Below, one piece after another: positions 1-5,007 of a DNA stretch of 25,032 bases (the first letter of the stretch is position 1; every line of letters starts with the position of its first letter). The position numbers and the translations under genes are program-made. The notes beneath the pieces were generated by a model. That model was not told the origin of the DNA. It saw nothing but the letters and a program-made list of their open reading frames with translations, and did not search any database. Source of the stretch: an uncultured archaeon (GTDB taxonomy: Archaea > Asgardarchaeota > Thorarchaeia > Thorarchaeales > Thorarchaeaceae); assembly GCA_964458565.1 (NCBI GenBank), contig CAYWJO010000049.1:1-25032 (forward strand), given 5' to 3'.

Positions 1-77
1 GCTCTGGCGAGTGTCCTTGCTGGACTGTACGGATAGCAATCAGTGCTCGAGTGCTCAATTTCGCCCTCCTGAGTCAT
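1..77 (-). CDS. Possible 5' end of a divergently transcribed gene running off the window (MTQEGEIEHSSTDCYPYSPARTLAR...)
   Basis: ATG at 77-75 on the minus strand, preceded by GCAGGT and an AT-rich intergenic region (85-230). The frame is open to the window edge. No family recognised. Confidence 0.3.
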   Translation of the reverse strand, partial: MTQEGEIEHSSTDCYPYSPARTLAR

Positions 78-230
78 GTACCTGCCTATTTACTCGTTTA
101 TATATAAATATGCGGTCTTTTATTGTATTTATATGCATTTTTTAGTTTAATAGAATGCCTTTAAATATGCTTTATGACCGTTTTCAGAAAATTATCTTCA
201 TAAGTTTATTACTATTTATGTATAGAAATG

Positions 231-296
231 AGTGGGGATTATCACCTATCCTCCTGAATAAAGGATGAGTGAACCCCTCTGACCCAACAGGTCGGA
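231..296 (+). repeat. Structured left end / 5' leader of the TnpB element: two hairpins
   Basis: Imperfect stem GGGG..TCAC..ATCCT (from 234) / AGGAT..GTGA..CCCC (to 277), then TCTGACC-CAACA-GGTCGGA (278-296). This GC-richer island sits in AT-rich DNA. Confidence 0.55.
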
Positions 297-321
297 AGTT
301 TATTACTTTCAGGTGAGACGC

Positions 322-2115
322 ATGGGAACTTCAAAGGGTACGGTCATCAGTGTAAAAGTCCCGATAAAGTGGGATGCTATGACCGAGAGGCAGAAGACTC
401 GACTCTCTCGAATAACAAGTAGAGATACACGGGTGATTCAAGCCTTCCTTGGAGTGATTGCATATCACGAGAAAGAACTTCTTGTCGGAAAGAGAAACAA
501 GAAAGTCAACGGTGCGAAGCTGGAGAAGATAACACTCACAGCTGAGAGGTCTAGAGATGAGTCCAAACATAGGACTATTGTCCCTCATGACTTCAAAGAG
601 AGATTCCCGAATATATCATTGAATGAACTACAGGAATGCAGACAGGTCGCTGTTGCCATGTGGAACAGCTATCTTGCTCTGGAGGGCGAACATCCTATGA
701 AGAGCAAGGGATACAGACCCCGTAAACTTCCTAGATATGTATTCAATCGCAGGTTCAAGGTCATCTATACTCCTGAGAAAGAGATCAACCACTGGCTCAG
801 GCTCATGGATTCCCTCGACTCTGCAAAGACACCTGGGCACTACCACGACTACCTTATGATTCCTCTCAGTCCTTCCTCTTATCATCTGAATAAGATGAAT
901 GAAGGAAAGGTTACATCACTTCGCCTTCTCAAGGACAGAAAACGGAAGTGGTGGGCGGTCTTCTCTGTACGCGTCAATGTCCCCGATATCTCAAACGGTT
1001 CGAAGTCACCTGCTATCCTAGGGATAGACCTTGGAATAGACAAGGCTGTCTGTTCAGTGGTATTGACTAGGAGTAAGGTACGACATGCGAGATATTTCAC
1101 GCAGCATGATAAGGTGAAGCGAATCGAGAAATTAGATAGACGGGTAGACGCTCTACAACATGAGATGGACACACGATTGAACAATGGTATTCCAGCTGAT
1201 GATATTGTCCTAAAATTGAGAGCACTCAGCGGGAAACGGAAGAATGTCAGTATCGATGATGACAGAGTCTTAGTGAAACAACTCACTGAGCATATTCTTG
1301 AGTTATCAAAGAAATATGACCTCTACGTTGCTATAGGGAAACTTACGGGTATTCGTGACAGTGCCAATCGAGGTAGTGGGAAGAAAAAGTCCTTCCGCTC
1401 AAAAGTTGCCCGGTGGACCTTTGCACGATTCACAAACTGGCTCAGGCACTCCCTTGCTCAGCAGGGCTGGAAAGTCTCCGGTTACGGCTCGCGATTCTTC
1501 ACAATTCGTGAATATTGGACAAGTCGTACCTGCCACAAGTGTGGGCACATCGGAATCAGGCCAAAGCAGTCGTTGTTCATCTGTCACACGTGCGGATATC
1601 GTACCAATGCCGACAAGAACGGCGCTATCAACATAGCAAGGCGCCTTATCAGGTTCATACCCTCTCTGAGGGATGAAGACAATGGACTAGGGCAGTGGCT
1701 CTTGCCTCATGAGAGGTCGGGGTCAACCCTGAAGGCCTCAAGGAGCTCGCGCTCTAAGAGGAAGTCCAGACCCTCTTCGAAGTTGTCAGCTTCAGGAAGG
1801 GGGTCCGTGGCTGAGTGCCATACTCAGGCTTCTTTGACCGAGTTTGAGGGTACTACCGATCCAGCCATGGAAAGTGCCGCGGAAATACCGTCTGCCGCCG
1901 TTGACGCCCGAAAGGCAACTGACAGTCATGGCAGTACAGTGCAGCGGAGTGAAGCTCAGTGCCAAGAGAGAAGTGTTGCTTCGGTGACCTTGGACAAAGC
2001 CCGTGTACACGGGTCGGGAGCGGTCTCGACTCTTGCTGGTGACAGCAGTCGCGAGAAGGGTAGAACGCGGAAGTCAGAGGTCATAGAAGGGGTTCACTCA
2101 CCTTCTAAAGACTAA
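322..2115 (+). CDS. tnpB: TnpB/Cas12f-like RNA-guided endonuclease, RuvC-II-rearranged type, with long disordered C-terminal tail
   Basis: Numbering from the 313 ORF: RuvC-I ILGIDLG (D239), YVAIGKL (G342 at the usual Glu position), REYWTS (E400), zinc finger CHKC...CHTC, RuvC-III NADKNGAINI (D434). ATG 322 is preferred because AGGTGA lies at 311-316. Confidence 0.9.
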   Translation: MGTSKGTVISVKVPIKWDAMTERQKTRLSRITSRDTRVIQAFLGVIAYHEKELLVGKRNKKVNGAKLEKITLTAERSRDESKHRTIVPHDFKERFPNISLNELQECRQVAVAMWNSYLALEGEHPMKSKGYRPRKLPRYVFNRRFKVIYTPEKEINHWLRLMDSLDSAKTPGHYHDYLMIPLSPSSYHLNKMNEGKVTSLRLLKDRKRKWWAVFSVRVNVPDISNGSKSPAILGIDLGIDKAVCSVVLTRSKVRHARYFTQHDKVKRIEKLDRRVDALQHEMDTRLNNGIPADDIVLKLRALSGKRKNVSIDDDRVLVKQLTEHILELSKKYDLYVAIGKLTGIRDSANRGSGKKKSFRSKVARWTFARFTNWLRHSLAQQGWKVSGYGSRFFTIREYWTSRTCHKCGHIGIRPKQSLFICHTCGYRTNADKNGAINIARRLIRFIPSLRDEDNGLGQWLLPHERSGSTLKASRSSRSKRKSRPSSKLSASGRGSVAECHTQASLTEFEGTTDPAMESAAEIPSAAVDARKATDSHGSTVQRSEAQCQERSVASVTLDKARVHGSGAVSTLAGDSSREKGRTRKSEVIEGVHSPSKD

Positions 2116-2140
2116 GACAGGTCGGTGCATGCAGCCGAGA
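1690..2140 (+). ncRNA. Putative omegaRNA/sotRNA overlapping the tnpB 3' end
   Basis: Dense stems: GACCCTCTTC/GAAGGGGGTC, CTGAGT/ACTCAG, GCC-CGAAA-GGC, C(TTCG)G tetraloop, the palindrome CCCGTGTACACGGG, GTCGGGA/TCTCGAC and TAGAAGG/CCTTCTA. The encoded protein here is low-complexity. TnpB omegaRNAs are known to overlap the ORF 3' end. Confidence 0.7.
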
Positions 2141-2266
2141 ACATTAATGAGTAAGCCTCATCTTTGTATTGCAGATTCAAAAATATAGCTCATACAACCT
2201 GAAAATTAATCTATTATCCATAATATATATGACCAATCTTAGTAATTAGATTACAGGTGGTAGACG

Positions 2267-2734
2267 ATGGGTGAAACAAATCCAAAAATAACACTTCGAA
2301 TAAAAATCGATGAACTTGAAATAGAAGTTCAAGCAGATGGAATTTCAAATCTTGAGAGTGCTTATTTGTCACTCCTATATACGAGAACGAAGCTAGGAGA
2401 AATCAAGAGGAAGCACCAAGCTTTACTAATCGCTGAAGAGGCTAAAGAAAAGGCAAGTCGTTACTGGGTTGAAGCAGAAGGCAAAAGAAAACTCATTGGT
2501 ATTGATGATACACCCATCTCTATCATTTTATCTCTTTTAGACTCATATCCAGAGGGTAAGAAAGGTTCGACAGTATCTGAGGAAACTAGTGTCGGTCATC
2601 CAACAGTCAGCAAGTATTTTTCAGGTGCATACGGTGAACATGCAGCATTCTTTGAAAAGTGTAATAGTGAATGGAAACTTAGCTCAGAAGGTGTATTTTA
2701 CATACATAATTGGTTAAGCGAAAATGCAGAATGA
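2267..2734 (+). CDS. Hypothetical protein with probable C-terminal winged HTH
   Basis: SD-like CAGGTGG upstream. STVSEETSVGHPTVSKYFS is helix-turn-helix-like and WKLSSEG is wing-like. Confidence 0.6.
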   Translation: MGETNPKITLRIKIDELEIEVQADGISNLESAYLSLLYTRTKLGEIKRKHQALLIAEEAKEKASRYWVEAEGKRKLIGIDDTPISIILSLLDSYPEGKKGSTVSEETSVGHPTVSKYFSGAYGEHAAFFEKCNSEWKLSSEGVFYIHNWLSENAE

Positions 2735-2810
2735 ATTTTGATATTATGACTGAAAGGTTATATGTTGCTATACTGCCCCCCAGTTCAATACAGGAGGATT
2801 CCAAACAACT

Positions 2811-3221
2811 ATGCCCCCTAAGGATATGAACATCATCGTGTTGGGATGCATGCAATGTATGTATGCAGCAGCAGACCTTGCAGGAACGATGAAGCTGCAG
2901 TACGATGTGAGTGCGAGGATAATCCGAATGCCGTGTACCGCACGATTGGATCTCAACTTCATCCTGAAAGCACTGCAAGAGGGGGCAGATGGAGTACTGA
3001 TCGTTGGATGTCATCCTGGGGACTGCGCATACAAGACCGGAAACTTGGGGGCAGAACGACGTGTCAGATTTGCGAGGAAGTTGATTGCAAGCCTTGGAAT
3101 CGACGAGCGTCGCGTGAAAATGGTGTTTGTTTCAGCAGCGGAGGGCGATAAGTTTGCAGAAGAAGTCAACACCTTTGCTGACGAGATACGCGCAATAGGG
3201 CCAAATCCAATCAGATTATGA
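2811..3221 (+). CDS. mvhD: Hydrogenase/heterodisulfide reductase [2Fe-2S] subunit MvhD/FlpD (all-Cys form)
   Basis: CxxCxYAAADLAG, IIRMPCTAR, GADGVLIVGCHPGDC and SAAEG..F...GPNP motifs; GGAGG SD upstream. Confidence 0.95.
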   Translation: MPPKDMNIIVLGCMQCMYAAADLAGTMKLQYDVSARIIRMPCTARLDLNFILKALQEGADGVLIVGCHPGDCAYKTGNLGAERRVRFARKLIASLGIDERRVKMVFVSAAEGDKFAEEVNTFADEIRAIGPNPIRL

Positions 3222-3449
3222 GTTTCATACTGTATATACTGTAATCGTATCTGGATTGAAAACCAGCTGCTATATCTTACTTGATTATTGTGTCATTAGT
3301 GACTCCAGTATATGTTCTAAACATCCATAATTTACTATTAAAAAGTTTTAATATTCAATACATCAATAAAATAATGGGGAGCACACAAGTCAAACACAAG
3401 TCGTGATTTATCATAGATTGTGTAGTCATCTATAAAGGAGTAATGTGTA

Positions 3450-3647
3450 ATGAAAAATTCAAATAGGGAACTGATTGCCGTCTATGTACTGATGCCTCTC
3501 TTGACCCTATCTTTCTTTATGAGTTCATTAGTATTTTTAGTGAACCAATCTTCTAGAAATCAAGATAGTGACTTTTCAGGTCTTAGGGCATTTGCAACAT
3601 TGGAAATCCAATTAATGCGAGGGGGATTATCCCCCCTCTTTTCTTGA
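3450..3647 (+). CDS. Small single-pass membrane protein (putative)
   Basis: AAAGGAG SD upstream; hydrophobic stretch LIAVYVLMPLLTLSFFMSSLVFLV. Confidence 0.4.
   Translation: MKNSNRELIAVYVLMPLLTLSFFMSSLVFLVNQSSRNQDSDFSGLRAFATLEIQLMRGGLSPLFS
3619..3645 (+). terminator. Terminator-like hairpin
   Basis: GAGGGGG-ATTATC-CCCCCTC followed by TTTTCTT. Confidence 0.4.
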
Positions 3648-3648
3648 G

Positions 3649-5007
3649 TTGAACAACATGAACAAAACTATATCTCGAACTCCAAGGAAAACTCTATTGA
3701 TATTGCTCGTTGTTTCTATACTACAATCTACTTGTATATCGAATACGAGTATATCTTATCCAACACCTACTACACAAGTTCATGTGCACTTAAGCTATGC
3801 AACCACTCGAATAGATGCAATTACAGACTATATTTTATCTTTGTATTTGGATGAGGGCATGTTTTATGGATGGCTAAGGGACACACCACCAGACCTCAGA
3901 ATTGGATCCACTCCTAATATCTTCGATGTCTATGATGCATATCGAGTTCTTAATATGCTTGATAGAACAGATGTGCTTGATTGGACCAATTGTACCGAGT
4001 TTCTACGAAGTCTTGTGAACACCGACCCAGTCTCACCATCATATTATGGCTTGGTCAATCTTTCTATTACATCCTCGCCCAGTGTTATCTCATGTGATGT
4101 TGCAATTGAGTTGTTCCCAGAACTCGGTCTGGAGAGCTTGATTTTTGAACAAGAGATAGCTGAATATATAGTTCAGGCACAGACACCAAACGGTGGTTTT
4201 AGGTTGCGGCCGGATAATTCAGACCCGCCTGACATGATTACAACTTGGTCCGCACTGAGAGCAATGCACACACTCAATCATCTATCAGATATTGACACCT
4301 CAAAGGCAGTTGACTTCGTTATGTCTTGCTACACTGCGAACGGTGGCTTCTCGAATGTTCCTTATTATGACTCCAATCCGGATGTAGTTCCATTGGGCCT
4401 CTTTTGTTTAGAGCTTCTCAATAGGTTCGATCTCGTGAGAGTGACGAATACGACCAACTATCTCTTACAGTACTGGGACAACAATACTGGTCATGTTGTT
4501 GATGGCACATTGGTAAATACAGAACGGTTCGTTTGGTCACTTAAGACACTGGGTACACTCAGTCAAATCAATATTAACAAAACATTGGAATGGGTTTTGG
4601 CGTGTCAGAATACACGCAATGGTTTGTTTCTTCCAATACCAAATTATGACTATGATAGTGAACGACTTGAATGGTGTAGAGCTGCTGTACATATACTTGA
4701 TCTTTGCGACAGATTGGATCTGCTAGAAGAACCTATCACTCTGATTGAACATCCAGTATATACTACTCCCCAATGGTATATCGATTATATCAACGAGCAT
4801 TTTGGAACTCAAACCAACACAGGAAATGGTGTCCATCCAATATGGCCCAACATCGACATAGCTGCTTTCTTAGTCAATAGTCTTCCTCTTATGGGTATTG
4901 CATTCATTATATCTCTTCCAGCTGTCTATATAACATGGTCTAAACGAAAGAAACGAGATGAACGCAGAGAACAGCATGAAAGACGAAAAAAGATGAGGGG
5001 AAAGTAA
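3649..5007 (+). CDS. Prenyltransferase/squalene-cyclase-repeat protein, membrane anchored
   Basis: Repeats AQTPNGGF, CYTANGGFS and CQNTRNGLF with intervening helices. Hydrophobic N-terminal signal, and a C-terminal TM helix followed by a K/R-rich tail. Start could be ATG 3658. Confidence 0.8.
   Translation: MNNMNKTISRTPRKTLLILLVVSILQSTCISNTSISYPTPTTQVHVHLSYATTRIDAITDYILSLYLDEGMFYGWLRDTPPDLRIGSTPNIFDVYDAYRVLNMLDRTDVLDWTNCTEFLRSLVNTDPVSPSYYGLVNLSITSSPSVISCDVAIELFPELGLESLIFEQEIAEYIVQAQTPNGGFRLRPDNSDPPDMITTWSALRAMHTLNHLSDIDTSKAVDFVMSCYTANGGFSNVPYYDSNPDVVPLGLFCLELLNRFDLVRVTNTTNYLLQYWDNNTGHVVDGTLVNTERFVWSLKTLGTLSQININKTLEWVLACQNTRNGLFLPIPNYDYDSERLEWCRAAVHILDLCDRLDLLEEPITLIEHPVYTTPQWYIDYINEHFGTQTNTGNGVHPIWPNIDIAAFLVNSLPLMGIAFIISLPAVYITWSKRKKRDERREQHERRKKMRGK

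What the first reader, a model, noticed from the sequence alone, without database searches (positions are those of the whole stretch)
231..2125. The two ends of the TnpB locus are complementary: possible RNA switch or self-targeting of the promoter
Seen: TGAGTGAACCCCT (266-278) is the exact reverse complement of AGGGGTTCACTCA (2088-2100), with imperfect extension on both sides (AAGG, GACC). Each copy is also sequestered in its own local hairpin (234-277; TAGAAGG/CCTTCTA at 2084-2107). ACAGGTCGG follows both ends as a direct repeat (287-295, 2117-2125). Established: IS200/IS605 and IS607 elements lack terminal inverted repeats. Three inferred explanations: (a) mutually exclusive folds couple translation to omegaRNA maturation by looping out the ORF; (b) the RNA guides TnpB to its own leader by 13-nt partial pairing, giving autorepression; (c) these are subterminal repeats recognised by a different transposase acting in trans.
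Basis: partly seen in the sequence, partly recalled or inferred. Interest (0 to 1): 0.8.

Follow-up and report, generated by a model that had tools for sequence, protein, structure and literature searches.

The report
Leader mini-guide pairs with TnpB guide-RNA end
The two complementary "ends" are real and conserved across relatives: the tnpB mRNA leader carries a short guide-RNA-like unit that can pair with the tip of the large 3' guide RNA and whose 12-base guide copies the gene's own promoter, so this Asgard-archaeal RNA-guided nuclease probably switches itself off.

Summary
Observation confirmed. The 13-mer at 266-278 is the exact reverse complement of 2088-2100, and it occurs nowhere else in the 3.7-Mb Thorarchaeota genome. 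ACAGGTCGG follows both copies.

This is not a standalone IS200/IS605 element. It is the published Asgard "aCas1-TnpB" type of locus, with a giant divergent partner gene and a GTTCACTCA motif at the tnpB 3' end.

In 42 relatives, leader TGAGTGAA and 3' TTCACTCA are near-invariant. Flanking bases co-vary within loci, with an excess of G-U pairs over C-A. The 3' motif sits in a hairpin loop. Metatranscriptome contigs cover only 1695-2000, which fits a stable 3' guide-RNA scaffold.

New point: the 10-17 nt directly after the leader's ACAGGTCGG (296-307 here) copy the BRE/TATA about 95 nt upstream (202-213), directly after TTCAT/TTAAT. This holds in 36 of 42 loci, with 31 different sequences.

Best reading (about 50%): the leader unit acts like a crRNA. 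It pairs with the 3' scaffold as repeat to anti-repeat and aims TnpB at its own promoter with a match too short to cut.

The transposase-repeat idea is not supported.

This scan reached the same self-targeting reading on other genomes. No experiment exists.

The parts
1..77 (-). First 25 codons of the giant divergent partner gene (1400-1900 aa in relatives; the published 'aCas1'). It is cut by the contig start.
   Evidence: The translation ends ...CYPYSPARTLAR and matches the N-terminus of P0002. The partner gene is adjacent and divergent in relatives.
197..201 (+). TTCAT, a motif like a TAM (target-adjacent motif), directly 5' of the promoter copy.
   Evidence: Across 36 loci position -4 is T, -2 is A and -1 is T in all 36; -3 is C or A; -5 is T in 30 of 36.
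202..213 (+). Target-like 12-mer AAGTTTATTACT. It is a BRE/TATA-like element placed to start transcription at about 231-236.
   Evidence: Exact copy of 296-307, and the only two copies in the genome. The same relation holds in 36 of 42 loci. The promoter role is inferred from archaeal TATA-to-start spacing.
231..295 (+). Leader RNA module. It holds a long imperfect hairpin (234-277) containing TGAGTGAA (266-273; 13-mer 266-278), a mini hairpin CTGACC/GGTCGG (279-295), and the scaffold-end motif ACAGGTCGG (287-295).
   Evidence: Folds. On alignment A4, 86% of cells are paired against 25-46% when the partners are slid, and the mini hairpin has many U-G pairs. The module is conserved in paralogs and relatives.
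296..307 (+). Guide-like 12-mer directly after the leader's scaffold-end motif. The match to the promoter stops here, and the Shine-Dalgarno GGTGA follows at 312-316.
322..2115 (+). tnpB ORF (597 aa). RuvC-I D236, RuvC-II position G339 (rearranged type), RuvC-III D431, and a CxxC...CxxC zinc finger. The tail from about aa 450 overlaps the guide-RNA gene.
1695..2125 (+). Inferred omega-RNA scaffold, about 430 nt. RNA contigs cover 1695-2000. The conserved block GGTGACAG...GAAC lies at about 2036-2066.
   Evidence: Four metatranscriptome runs have contigs only at 1695-2000, with two starting at 1695/1696. The 3' boundary follows from flanks diverging after ACAGGTCGG in paralogs. GC is 57% at 1801-2100.
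2079..2112 (+). Terminal hairpin of the 3' RNA. The stem is TAGAAGG/CCTTCTA (2084-2090 / 2101-2107) plus outer GTC/GAC. The loop GGTTCACTCA (2091-2100) carries the invariant motif. The 13-mer is at 2088-2100.
   Evidence: The stem sequences differ between loci while the loop stays constant. This is the 'hypervariable region + GTTCACTCA' of PMC10691335.
2117..2125 (+). ACAGGTCGG, the 3' end of the scaffold (right-end boundary).
2126..2141 (+). Flank that would serve as the ordinary cis guide (TGCATGCAGCCGAGAA). It is a remnant of the 5' end of an mvhD-like gene read on the minus strand (..NVLGCMH).
2811..3221 (+). Intact mvhD/FlpD gene. It is a conserved downstream neighbour in 15 loci and serves as context, not as part of the element.
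   Evidence: Pfam PF02662, E 4.9e-46. 83-88% identity across loci.

Best explanation
The complementarity is most likely an RNA-RNA contact of the repeat:anti-repeat kind, inside a TnpB system that uses two guides.

Components:
- The 3' part of the locus (about 1695-2125) encodes a large omega-RNA scaffold.
- Its last hairpin exposes the invariant loop TTCACTCA. It is followed by a mini hairpin, ACAGGTCGG and the flanking DNA, which acts as the ordinary guide.
- The tnpB mRNA leader (about 231-311) is a short crRNA-like unit. It holds TGAGTGAA plus a few locus-specific bases, the same mini hairpin, the same ACAGGTCGG, and then a 12-nt guide.

Proposed steps (inferred):
1. The exposed loop acts as a toehold.
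2. The leader strand pairs with the loop and with the 5' arm of the terminal hairpin (13 bp exact here, about 23 bp with bulges), displacing the scaffold's own 3' arm and guide.
3. The leader's mini hairpin and guide then occupy the guide position of the TnpB ribonucleoprotein. This could happen in trans, or in cis on a full-length transcript.
4. The leader guide equals the BRE/TATA of the tnpB promoter, which lies directly 3' of a TTCAT/TTAAT motif. This is the geometry of a 5' TAM followed by a protospacer.
5. The complex would sit on the promoter and lower tnpB and leader transcription.
6. The match is only 10-17 nt, so it would bind without cutting. The Shine-Dalgarno sequence 5 nt downstream could also be occluded.

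Shown: the sequence relations, their conservation and co-variation, and an abundant RNA from the 3' region.
Inferred: the pairing in vivo, TnpB loading, the TAM, and repression.
For: 1. Exact 13-mer, unique in the genome.
2. Leader (T/G)GAGTGAA and 3' TTCACTCA are near-invariant in 42 loci with 43-100% protein identity.
3. The bases next to the core co-vary within loci. Position +1 shows C-G 22, A-U 7 and U-G 4 of 39. Position +2 shows U-A 14, U-G 10, C-G 7 and A-U 2.
4. Own-locus pairing is 4.87 of 7 against 3.59 cross-locus, reached by 0 of 10000 permutations.
5. Duplex energy is -25.8 own-locus against -20.2 kcal/mol cross-locus, reached by 0 of 5000 permutations.
6. U-G and G-U total 40 against 25 for C-A and A-C overall. 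At +1 and +2 the counts are 14 against 3. This favours RNA over DNA recognition.
7. The 3' motif lies in a hairpin loop whose stem differs from locus to locus.
8. The leader's 3' arm matches the 3' loop 8 of 8, although its own 5' arm has drifted to TTATCAC.
9. Cofolding puts the intermolecular helix in the minimum-energy structure for the window and 7 of 11 other loci tested.
10. The leader part after the core has the same layout as the 3' end after its loop: a C-rich arm, a GAC...GTC mini hairpin, then ACAGGTCGG.
11. Guide-target relation: in 36 of 42 loci the sequence directly after the leader's CAGGTCGG copies the promoter 92-105 nt upstream.
12. Positions 1-10 are identical in 36 of 36 loci. 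Positions 11 and 12 use all four bases yet match in 34 and 32 of 36. From position 15 on, identity is at chance level.
13. There are 31 distinct 12-mers, and the preceding motif is T-T-(C/A)-A-T.
14. All 24 loci with the giant gene upstream have the match. The 6 loci without the match lack that gene.
15. The paralog on contig C79 has a 15-nt match after TTAAT.
16. RNA contigs from four metatranscriptome runs cover only 1695-2000.
17. Precedents for short-guide binding without cleavage, as cited in PMC10705468: Cas9 long-form tracrRNA and TldR 9-11-nt guides.
Against: - There is no RNA evidence for the leader unit, for its ends, or for any leader/3'-end chimera. The RNA data are assembled contigs only.
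- The TAM is inferred only from the self-targets. I could not confirm it from an empty transposon site.
- The co-varying positions trace to a few clades, so independent events are few. In the most distant clades pairing shrinks to about 9-10 bp, and 3 of 12 cofolds keep the two RNAs apart.
- The leader motif is itself buried in a stable hairpin (-20 to -30 kcal/mol).
- The register of the leader hairpin is not uniform, and RNAalifold found no consensus structure.
- Locus-specific similarity of the leader and 3' tails is weak (246 of 5000 permutations).
- An exact 12-nt direct repeat in 2.1 kb is not rare on its own. A second one exists at 791/1436.
- The nuclease is probably active, because the RuvC-II Gly belongs to the rearranged type. 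Self-targeting without damage therefore rests on an untested length threshold.
Confidence: 0.5

Rival explanations
1. Self-contained mini guide. The leader hairpin is a short stand-alone guide RNA, with its own 5' arm acting as a built-in anti-repeat. It still targets the promoter. Its complementarity to the 3' end is only a by-product of descent from a duplicated 3' end and has no function.
For: The leader's 5' arm resembles the 3' hairpin arm plus loop (GGAGTTCA.. / GTGGAGATTATCA..). The leader folds stably on its own. In some loci the leader extension fits its own 5' arm better than the 3' end, for example L022.
Against: The leader core stays 8 of 8 complementary to the 3' loop while its own 5' arm has diverged. 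The extension co-varies with the 3' hypervariable arm. About 65 nt is far smaller than the roughly 430-nt scaffold that the same protein appears to use.
Confidence: 0.17
2. Cis 5'-3' pairing of the full-length mRNA. This acts as a riboswitch-like control of translation and/or omega-RNA processing, which is the first reader's option (a). The promoter copy has another cause and there is no guide function.
For: Both segments lie on one predicted transcript. Mutually exclusive local and long-range folds are predicted. The Shine-Dalgarno sequence lies 5 nt after the 12-mer. TnpB processing of its own mRNA is known (cited in PMC10705468).
Against: It does not explain why the sequence after ACAGGTCGG copies the promoter, with sharp boundaries and an adjacent conserved TTMAT, in 36 loci. 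It also does not explain why the leader repeats the scaffold's last 25 nt.
Confidence: 0.15
3. DNA-level inverted repeats. The two motifs are binding sites, or relict terminal inverted repeats, for a transposase such as the Cas1-like partner.
For: Published work notes that aCas1-TnpB loci are often flanked by repeats and proposes aCas1 as the transposase (PMC10691335). Inverted repeats also co-evolve.
Against: The 'left' copy is internal, lying between the two genes, and conservation continues upstream through the promoter. No TGAGTGAAC was found beyond the far end of the giant gene in three full loci. The G-U excess and the U-G-rich mini hairpin point to RNA. 5'-truncated copies keep only the 3' end.
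Confidence: 0.1
4. Chance similarity.
For: A single 12-13-mer match in 2 kb is not astronomically rare.
Against: The match is conserved, positioned and co-varying across 42 loci.
Confidence: 0.01

Closest known systems
Asgard aCas1-associated TnpB loci (Cas1H-Asgard-1/2; Altae-Tran et al. 2023, PNAS, PMC10691335)
   Same: The host is a Thorarchaeota MAG. tnpB is paired with a giant gene. A hypervariable stretch is followed by the conserved GTTCACTCA at the tnpB 3' end, exactly as that paper describes.
   Different: The paper suggested that the hypervariable stretch might be the guide. Here it behaves as the 5' arm of a hairpin, pairing with the sequence after the motif and with the leader. The leader complement, the leader mini-guide and the promoter self-match are not in that paper. 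Cas1 homology of the partner gene was not confirmed here; only motif-level resemblance was seen.
Type V tracrRNA:crRNA guides and transposon-CRISPR intermediates (TranC; Jin et al. 2025, as cited in PMC13565253)
   Same: A short RNA with a 5' repeat part and a 3' guide would pair through an anti-repeat with a longer scaffold RNA of a TnpB/Cas12-type protein.
   Different: There is no CRISPR array. A single unit sits in the gene's own 5' leader. The scaffold keeps its own cis guide. The target is self.
Cas9 autorepression by long-form tracrRNA (Workman et al. 2021) and Francisella scaRNA (Ratner et al. 2019), both as cited in PMC10705468
   Same: An active RNA-guided nuclease would be aimed at a promoter by a natural guide with a truncated match, so it binds without cutting. 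In the Cas9 case the promoter is its own.
   Different: The protein family differs (TnpB, archaeal). The target is a BRE/TATA box. The guide lies in the mRNA leader. Nothing has been tested experimentally.
TldR, TnpB-like nuclease-dead repressors (Wiegand et al., PMC10705468)
   Same: A TnpB-family protein would use short guides (9-16 nt) to sit on promoters next to a TAM.
   Different: TldRs have lost catalytic residues or RuvC-III. Here D236 and D431 are invariant, and the RuvC-II Gly is the 'rearranged, probably active' type. The family is multi-copy and looks mobile.
IS200/IS605 and IS607 TnpB/omega-RNA elements
   Same: A 3' omega-RNA overlaps the end of tnpB, with the guide taken from the flank. 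Flanks diverge right after the scaffold end.
   Different: No Y1 TnpA is in the genome. The protein (597 aa) and scaffold (about 430 nt) are much larger. The partner is a giant gene rather than TnpA. A second guide-like unit sits in the leader.

Membership tests
TnpB (OMEGA RNA-guided nuclease) | RuvC-like split nuclease domain plus zinc-finger (TNB) domain | tested here: met
   Pfam Cas12f1-like_TNB, 51 bits against a cut-off of 26. PDB TnpB/Cas12f matches down to E 6e-11. NCBIfam guided_TnpB scores 90.6 bits, below its cut-off of 100. CxxC...CxxC is invariant.
TnpB (OMEGA RNA-guided nuclease) | Catalytic D-E-D triad | tested here: inconclusive
   D236 and D431 are invariant. The RuvC-II position is an invariant Gly in 42 of 42 sequences. 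Published work treats E-to-G with the NADxN motif as a rearranged, probably active site. No alternative Glu was located here.
TnpB (OMEGA RNA-guided nuclease) | Omega-RNA encoded at and overlapping the 3' end of the gene | tested here: met
   RNA contigs in four runs cover only 1695-2000. Nucleotide conservation runs through in-frame stops in relatives. Strand and ends are not shown.
IS200/IS605 | Y1 (HUH) TnpA transposase in the element or genome | tested here: not met
   PF01797 has no match in the 93%-complete assembly, while the control genomes are positive.
Asgard aCas1-TnpB loci (Cas1H-Asgard) | Hypervariable stretch followed by GTTCACTCA at the tnpB 3' end | tested here: met
   GTTCACTCA is at 2092-2100, preceded by a variable stretch, in 42 loci.
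Asgard aCas1-TnpB loci (Cas1H-Asgard) | Adjacent Cas1-homologous gene | tested here: inconclusive
   A giant divergent gene is adjacent. There is no Pfam, NCBIfam, PADLOC or PDB-profile match to Cas1. hhalign against the genome's own Cas1 gives only an 18-column motif match (E 0.014, probability 3%). By eye, N..L.N and H...D..D..R motifs resemble Cas1. Models of aa 380-900 show a PD-(D/E)xK domain plus a RecA/KaiC-like domain, and aa 880-1799 show TPR-like repeats. The N-terminal 380 aa were not folded.
TldR (nuclease-dead TnpB repressors) | Loss of the catalytic triad or of RuvC-III, in an immobile single-copy context | tested here: not met
   D236 and D431 are kept. The family is multi-copy, with up to 15 matches per genome.
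Type V CRISPR-Cas (tracrRNA:crRNA) | CRISPR array of repeats and spacers | tested here: not met
   The leader-type unit occurs only three times in the genome, each in a tnpB leader.
Type V CRISPR-Cas (tracrRNA:crRNA) | Repeat:anti-repeat complementarity between a guide-bearing RNA and a scaffold RNA | tested here: inconclusive
   The pairing is predicted and co-varying, but no RNA-RNA data exist.
TIR transposons carrying TnpB (DDE-associated) | Inverted repeats at the two termini of the mobile unit | tested here: not met
   The leader copy is internal to the two-gene module, and homology continues upstream of it.
Archaeal bulge-helix-bulge processing site | Two 3-nt bulges on opposite strands separated by a 4-bp helix | tested here: not met
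   The leader/3' helix reads 4 bp, a 1-nt bulge, 13 bp, a 1-nt bulge, 2 bp, a 2-nt bulge, 4 bp (read).

The most novel reading that the evidence does not exclude
A transposon-type TnpB naturally runs on two RNAs. One large scaffold serves two guides through toehold-mediated exchange at its terminal hairpin. The flank-derived cis guide serves the element's maintenance. A leader-encoded crRNA-like guide represses the element's own promoter. Sitting next to a Cas1-like gene, this would be a living intermediate between single omega-RNAs and tracrRNA/crRNA systems, with built-in RNA-guided autoregulation.
Probability: 0.35. Interest if true: 0.85.

Novelty: new variant of a known kind. Interest (0 to 1): 0.72.

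Why it matters
How TnpB nucleases are kept in check is largely unknown. How single omega-RNAs became split tracrRNA/crRNA guides is an active question.

If this reading holds, the locus offers three things:
- A natural, conserved example of guide splitting outside CRISPR.
- A self-targeting guide with a deliberately short match, which suggests a cleavage-versus-binding threshold for this family.
- A concrete explanation for the published but unexplained "hypervariable region + GTTCACTCA" of Asgard aCas1-TnpB loci.

It also gives simple, testable design rules for programming these large archaeal TnpBs: the TAM TTMAT, the scaffold end ACAGGTCGG, and an anti-repeat loop.

Tried and rejected
- Rfam scan of 1-4000: nothing relevant.
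- RNAalifold on the 3' hairpin and leader alignments: no consensus structure, because stem registers differ between clades.
- Search for a genomic target of the 3' cis guide. There is no other site with at most 1 mismatch in 12. The 11-nt hit inside mvhD (2844-2854, minus strand) lacks the TTMAT motif, has an 8-nt palindromic core, and always mismatches at position 9. I read it as shared ancestry with an mvhD-like target gene, not as a target.
- TAM confirmation from an empty site. The far end of the element could not be delimited in L073-L075. A tRNA-flank approach gave no clean empty site.
- Bulge-helix-bulge or intron-like excision of the ORF: the geometry does not fit.
- TldR-like dead repressor: rejected, because D236 and D431 are invariant and the Gly is of the rearranged type.
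- Aloposons (PMC8813620): a different kind of element, with 3000-6000-aa tandem genes, tRNA integration and no TnpB mentioned.
- Cas1 identity of the giant gene: Pfam, PADLOC, NCBIfam, PDB phmmer and profile searches, the ESM Atlas and two structure models gave no Cas1 match.
- Leader RNA expression: the four RNA runs have no contig over 1-1694. Contigs cannot show absence.
- Locus-specific similarity of the leader and 3' tails: weak.
Full report
**1. The observation**

- TGAGTGAACCCCT at 266-278 is the exact reverse complement of 2088-2100.
- AAGG/CCTT and GACC/GGTC extend the pairing, with small bulges.
- ACAGGTCGG follows both copies, at 287-295 and 2117-2125.
- The repeat finder returns the inverted pair as arms 244-278 / 2088-2122.
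- In the whole 3.73-Mb assembly the 13-mer occurs only at these two places.
- Both local hairpins are predicted.

**2. What the locus is**

The ORF at 322-2115 encodes a 597-aa TnpB-family protein.
- Pfam finds the TNB domain.
- PDB TnpB and Cas12f chains match.
- NCBIfam guided_TnpB scores just under its cut-off.

The window is contig C49 of a 93%-complete MAG. Relatives are labelled Candidatus Thorarchaeota.

The protein family is strongly expanded. It is found in 54 of 86 genomes of the taxonomic family, with up to 15 matches per genome.

tnpB is regularly paired, head to head, with a giant gene of 1400-1900 aa. The window holds only that gene's first 25 codons, at 77 to 1 on the minus strand.

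This fits the published "aCas1-associated TnpB" loci of Asgard archaea. For those loci Altae-Tran et al. (PMC10691335) describe a hypervariable region followed by a conserved GTTCACTCA downstream of tnpB. They left its meaning open.

I could not confirm Cas1 homology of the giant gene.
- No profile or fold match to Cas1 was found.
- A model of aa 380-900 shows a PD-(D/E)xK domain plus a RecA/KaiC-like domain.
- A model of aa 880-1799 ends in TPR-like repeats.
- Only short Cas1-like motifs appear in the N-terminal part.

There is no Y1 TnpA in the genome.

The canonical RuvC-II glutamate is an invariant glycine in 42 of 42 relatives, while D236 and D431 are invariant. The literature treats this as a rearranged, probably active site.

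**3. The 3' end**

Paralogs and relatives share a conserved block (GGTGACAG...GAAC). It is followed by a hairpin whose stem differs from locus to locus while its loop keeps (G)TTCACTCA. Then come a small GAC...GTC hairpin and A(C/T)AGGT(C/T)(G/A)G. After that the flanks diverge.

The published "hypervariable region" is therefore the 5' arm of this terminal hairpin.

Four salt-marsh metatranscriptome runs contain contigs identical to the window only over 1695-2000. Two of them start at 1695/1696, and none covers the first 1370 nt of the ORF. This fits a stable omega-RNA scaffold of about 430 nt. Contigs show neither strand nor true ends.

The flank (2126-2141), read on the minus strand, encodes ..NVLGCMH, which resembles the N-terminus of the neighbouring MvhD (..IVLGCMQC).
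- Fifteen loci with TnpB identities of 43-100% sit upstream of mvhD, whose products are 83-88% identical.
- In two of them the junction lies 4 nt further along.
- I therefore read the flank as target-derived and place the right end at 2125.

**4. The 5' leader**

The region upstream of the start codon is conserved in paralogs C79 and C68 and in relatives. In order, it contains:
- a promoter-like BRE/TATA;
- about 20 nt of spacer;
- a long imperfect hairpin whose 3' arm carries (T/G)GAGTGAA;
- a mini hairpin CTGACC/GGTCGG;
- the motif ACAGGTCGG;
- a Shine-Dalgarno GGTGA;
- the start codon.

On a 20-sequence alignment, 86% of the proposed pairs form, against 25-46% when the partners are slid. 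The mini hairpin is 91% paired, with many C-G to U-G exchanges, as expected for RNA. The register of the long hairpin is not uniform between clades.

After its core motif the leader has the same layout as the 3' end after its loop. In effect it is a copy of the scaffold's last 25-30 nt, with the 8-nt motif inverted.

**5. Is the complementarity selected?**

I parsed 42 loci.
- The cores are near-invariant, so they carry no covariation information.
- The neighbouring positions do. At +1 the pairs are C-G 22, A-U 7 and U-G 4 of 39. At +2 they are U-A 14, U-G 10, C-G 7 and A-U 2.
- Own-locus pairing exceeds cross-locus pairing (4.87 against 3.59 of 7, reached by 0 of 10000 permutations).
- Own-locus duplex energy is -25.8 against -20.2 kcal/mol cross-locus (0 of 5000 permutations).
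- Wobble-compatible mismatches outnumber C-A and A-C mismatches, 40 to 25 overall and 14 to 3 next to the core.
- Cofolding places the intermolecular helix in the minimum-energy structure for the window (-52.1 against -44.3 kcal/mol) and for 7 of 11 other loci.

Caveats: clades share states, so independent events are few. In distant clades only about 9-10 bp remain.

**6. The further finding that gives the pairing a purpose**

The 12 nt directly after the leader's ACAGGTCGG (296-307) are an exact copy of 202-213. That copy is the BRE/TATA-like element, and it directly follows TTCAT (197-201). These are the only two copies in the genome.

The same relation holds in 36 of 42 loci.
- The match starts at the first base after the scaffold-end motif and at the first base after T-T-(C/A)-A-T.
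- Positions 1-10 are identical in 36 of 36 loci.
- Positions 11 and 12 use all four bases across loci, yet agree within a locus in 34 and 32 of 36.
- From position 15 on, identity is at chance level.
- There are 31 distinct 12-mers.

All 24 loci with the giant gene upstream have the match. The six loci without it have lost that upstream region.

This is the geometry of a type V or TnpB target: a 5' TAM followed by a non-target strand identical to the guide. The match is truncated.

The upstream copy is placed to start transcription at about 231-236, the first bases of the leader hairpin. This is inferred from archaeal TATA-to-start spacing. The downstream copy lies too close to the Shine-Dalgarno sequence and start codon to serve as this gene's promoter.

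**7. Mechanism proposed**

The leader would be a crRNA-like unit. Its repeat part pairs with the exposed loop and the 5' arm of the scaffold's terminal hairpin, with the loop acting as a toehold. That puts the leader's mini hairpin and guide where the scaffold's own 3' arm and cis guide normally sit. TnpB carrying this guide would bind the TTCAT-adjacent TATA box of its own promoter without cutting.

Precedents for short natural guides that give binding without cleavage are the Cas9 long-form tracrRNA, the Francisella scaRNA and TldRs with 9-11-nt guides (cited in PMC10705468). Splitting of omega-RNA into tracrRNA and crRNA is documented for TranC systems (cited in PMC13565253).

Everything beyond the sequence relations and the 3' RNA is inference.

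**8. Rivals**

- The leader is a self-contained mini guide, and its complementarity to the 3' end is inherited.
- The pairing acts only in cis on the mRNA, for translation or processing control.
- The motifs are DNA sites for a transposase.
- Chance.

The first two remain open. The third is disfavoured, because the leader copy is internal to the module and the mismatches carry an RNA-type signature. Chance is excluded by the comparative data.

**9. Relation to earlier work of this scan**

Notes on other genomes (e1-5518076, e1-5518068, e1-1238532) had reached the self-targeting leader-guide reading. I had reached the same reading from this window before consulting them. They pointed me to PMC10691335. 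They are not independent evidence.

**10. Verdict**

This is a new variant of known kinds, namely the TnpB omega-RNA, split guides and short-guide autoregulation. It rests on comparative evidence from 42 loci, but has no experimental support yet.

Noticed in passing
window 2126-2145 (minus strand) and 2811-3221: The DNA just past the tnpB 3' end encodes, on the other strand, ..NVLGCMH. This resembles the start of the neighbouring intact MvhD (..IVLGCMQC). Fifteen loci from different genera have a TnpB (43-100% identical) at this same place upstream of mvhD. Two of them have a junction shifted by 4 nt. This suggests repeated or very old insertion into an mvhD-like gene.
   Followed up: partly
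L026, L027, L030, L088 (3' ends): Some relatives carry two CAGGTCGG scaffold-end motifs about 40-50 nt apart downstream of tnpB, like a two-unit mini array. In L026 the second is followed by GGATCACCTCC, the sequence of the 16S rRNA 3' end.
   Followed up: no
L029, L035, L075, L088 3' flanks: A second clade shares a conserved flank ACGTCCCTGCTTCTTGC after the scaffold end. In L035 part of it forms an 8-bp palindromic hairpin. This is either a conserved target or a longer scaffold in that clade.
   Followed up: no
G000 contigs C7:50096-50138, L034, L036, L093 3' flanks: Other copies are followed by (T)CATAGCCAAGCT, which looks like the 5' part (D-arm) of a tRNA gene. These copies therefore appear to be inserted at the start of tRNA genes.
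   Followed up: partly
window 1650-2115 and relatives: The last 150 or so codons of the ORF overlap the guide-RNA gene. In the closest clade the frame stays open to 2115. In other clades protein-level similarity runs through an in-frame TGA, so the conservation there is probably at the RNA level.
   Followed up: partly
L073:7229-12628 (giant partner protein P0002): The giant protein has no family match. It contains a RecB/Cas4-like PD-(D/E)xK motif set (D402, D430-x-K432, Q486xxxY490), then a RecA/KaiC-like fold without a canonical P-loop lysine, and a TPR-like C-terminus. Its N-terminal part has N..L.N and H...D..D..R motifs reminiscent of Cas1.
   Followed up: partly
run X6, record 3: The same metatranscriptome holds a 306-nt RNA contig of a paralogous 3' scaffold (...CAGGAGTCTCTTGCAGTTCACTCACAATT). 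Several family members therefore seem to be expressed as RNA in that habitat.
   Followed up: no
G000 contigs C79, C68, C5 (ends): Paralogous tnpB copies break the assembly right after codon 450, where the guide-RNA region begins. Contig C5 ends in a stretch 87% identical to window 1990-2074. The conserved scaffold is a repeat that fragments the MAG.
   Followed up: no
window 791-802 and 1436-1447: An exact 12-nt direct repeat ACTGGCTCAGGC lies inside the ORF, with both copies encoding WLR. It is probably chance, and it shows that a single 12-mer repeat is not significant on its own.
   Followed up: no
window 2267-2734: A 155-aa ORF between tnpB and mvhD has no Pfam match and is shared only with locus L021.
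   Followed up: no
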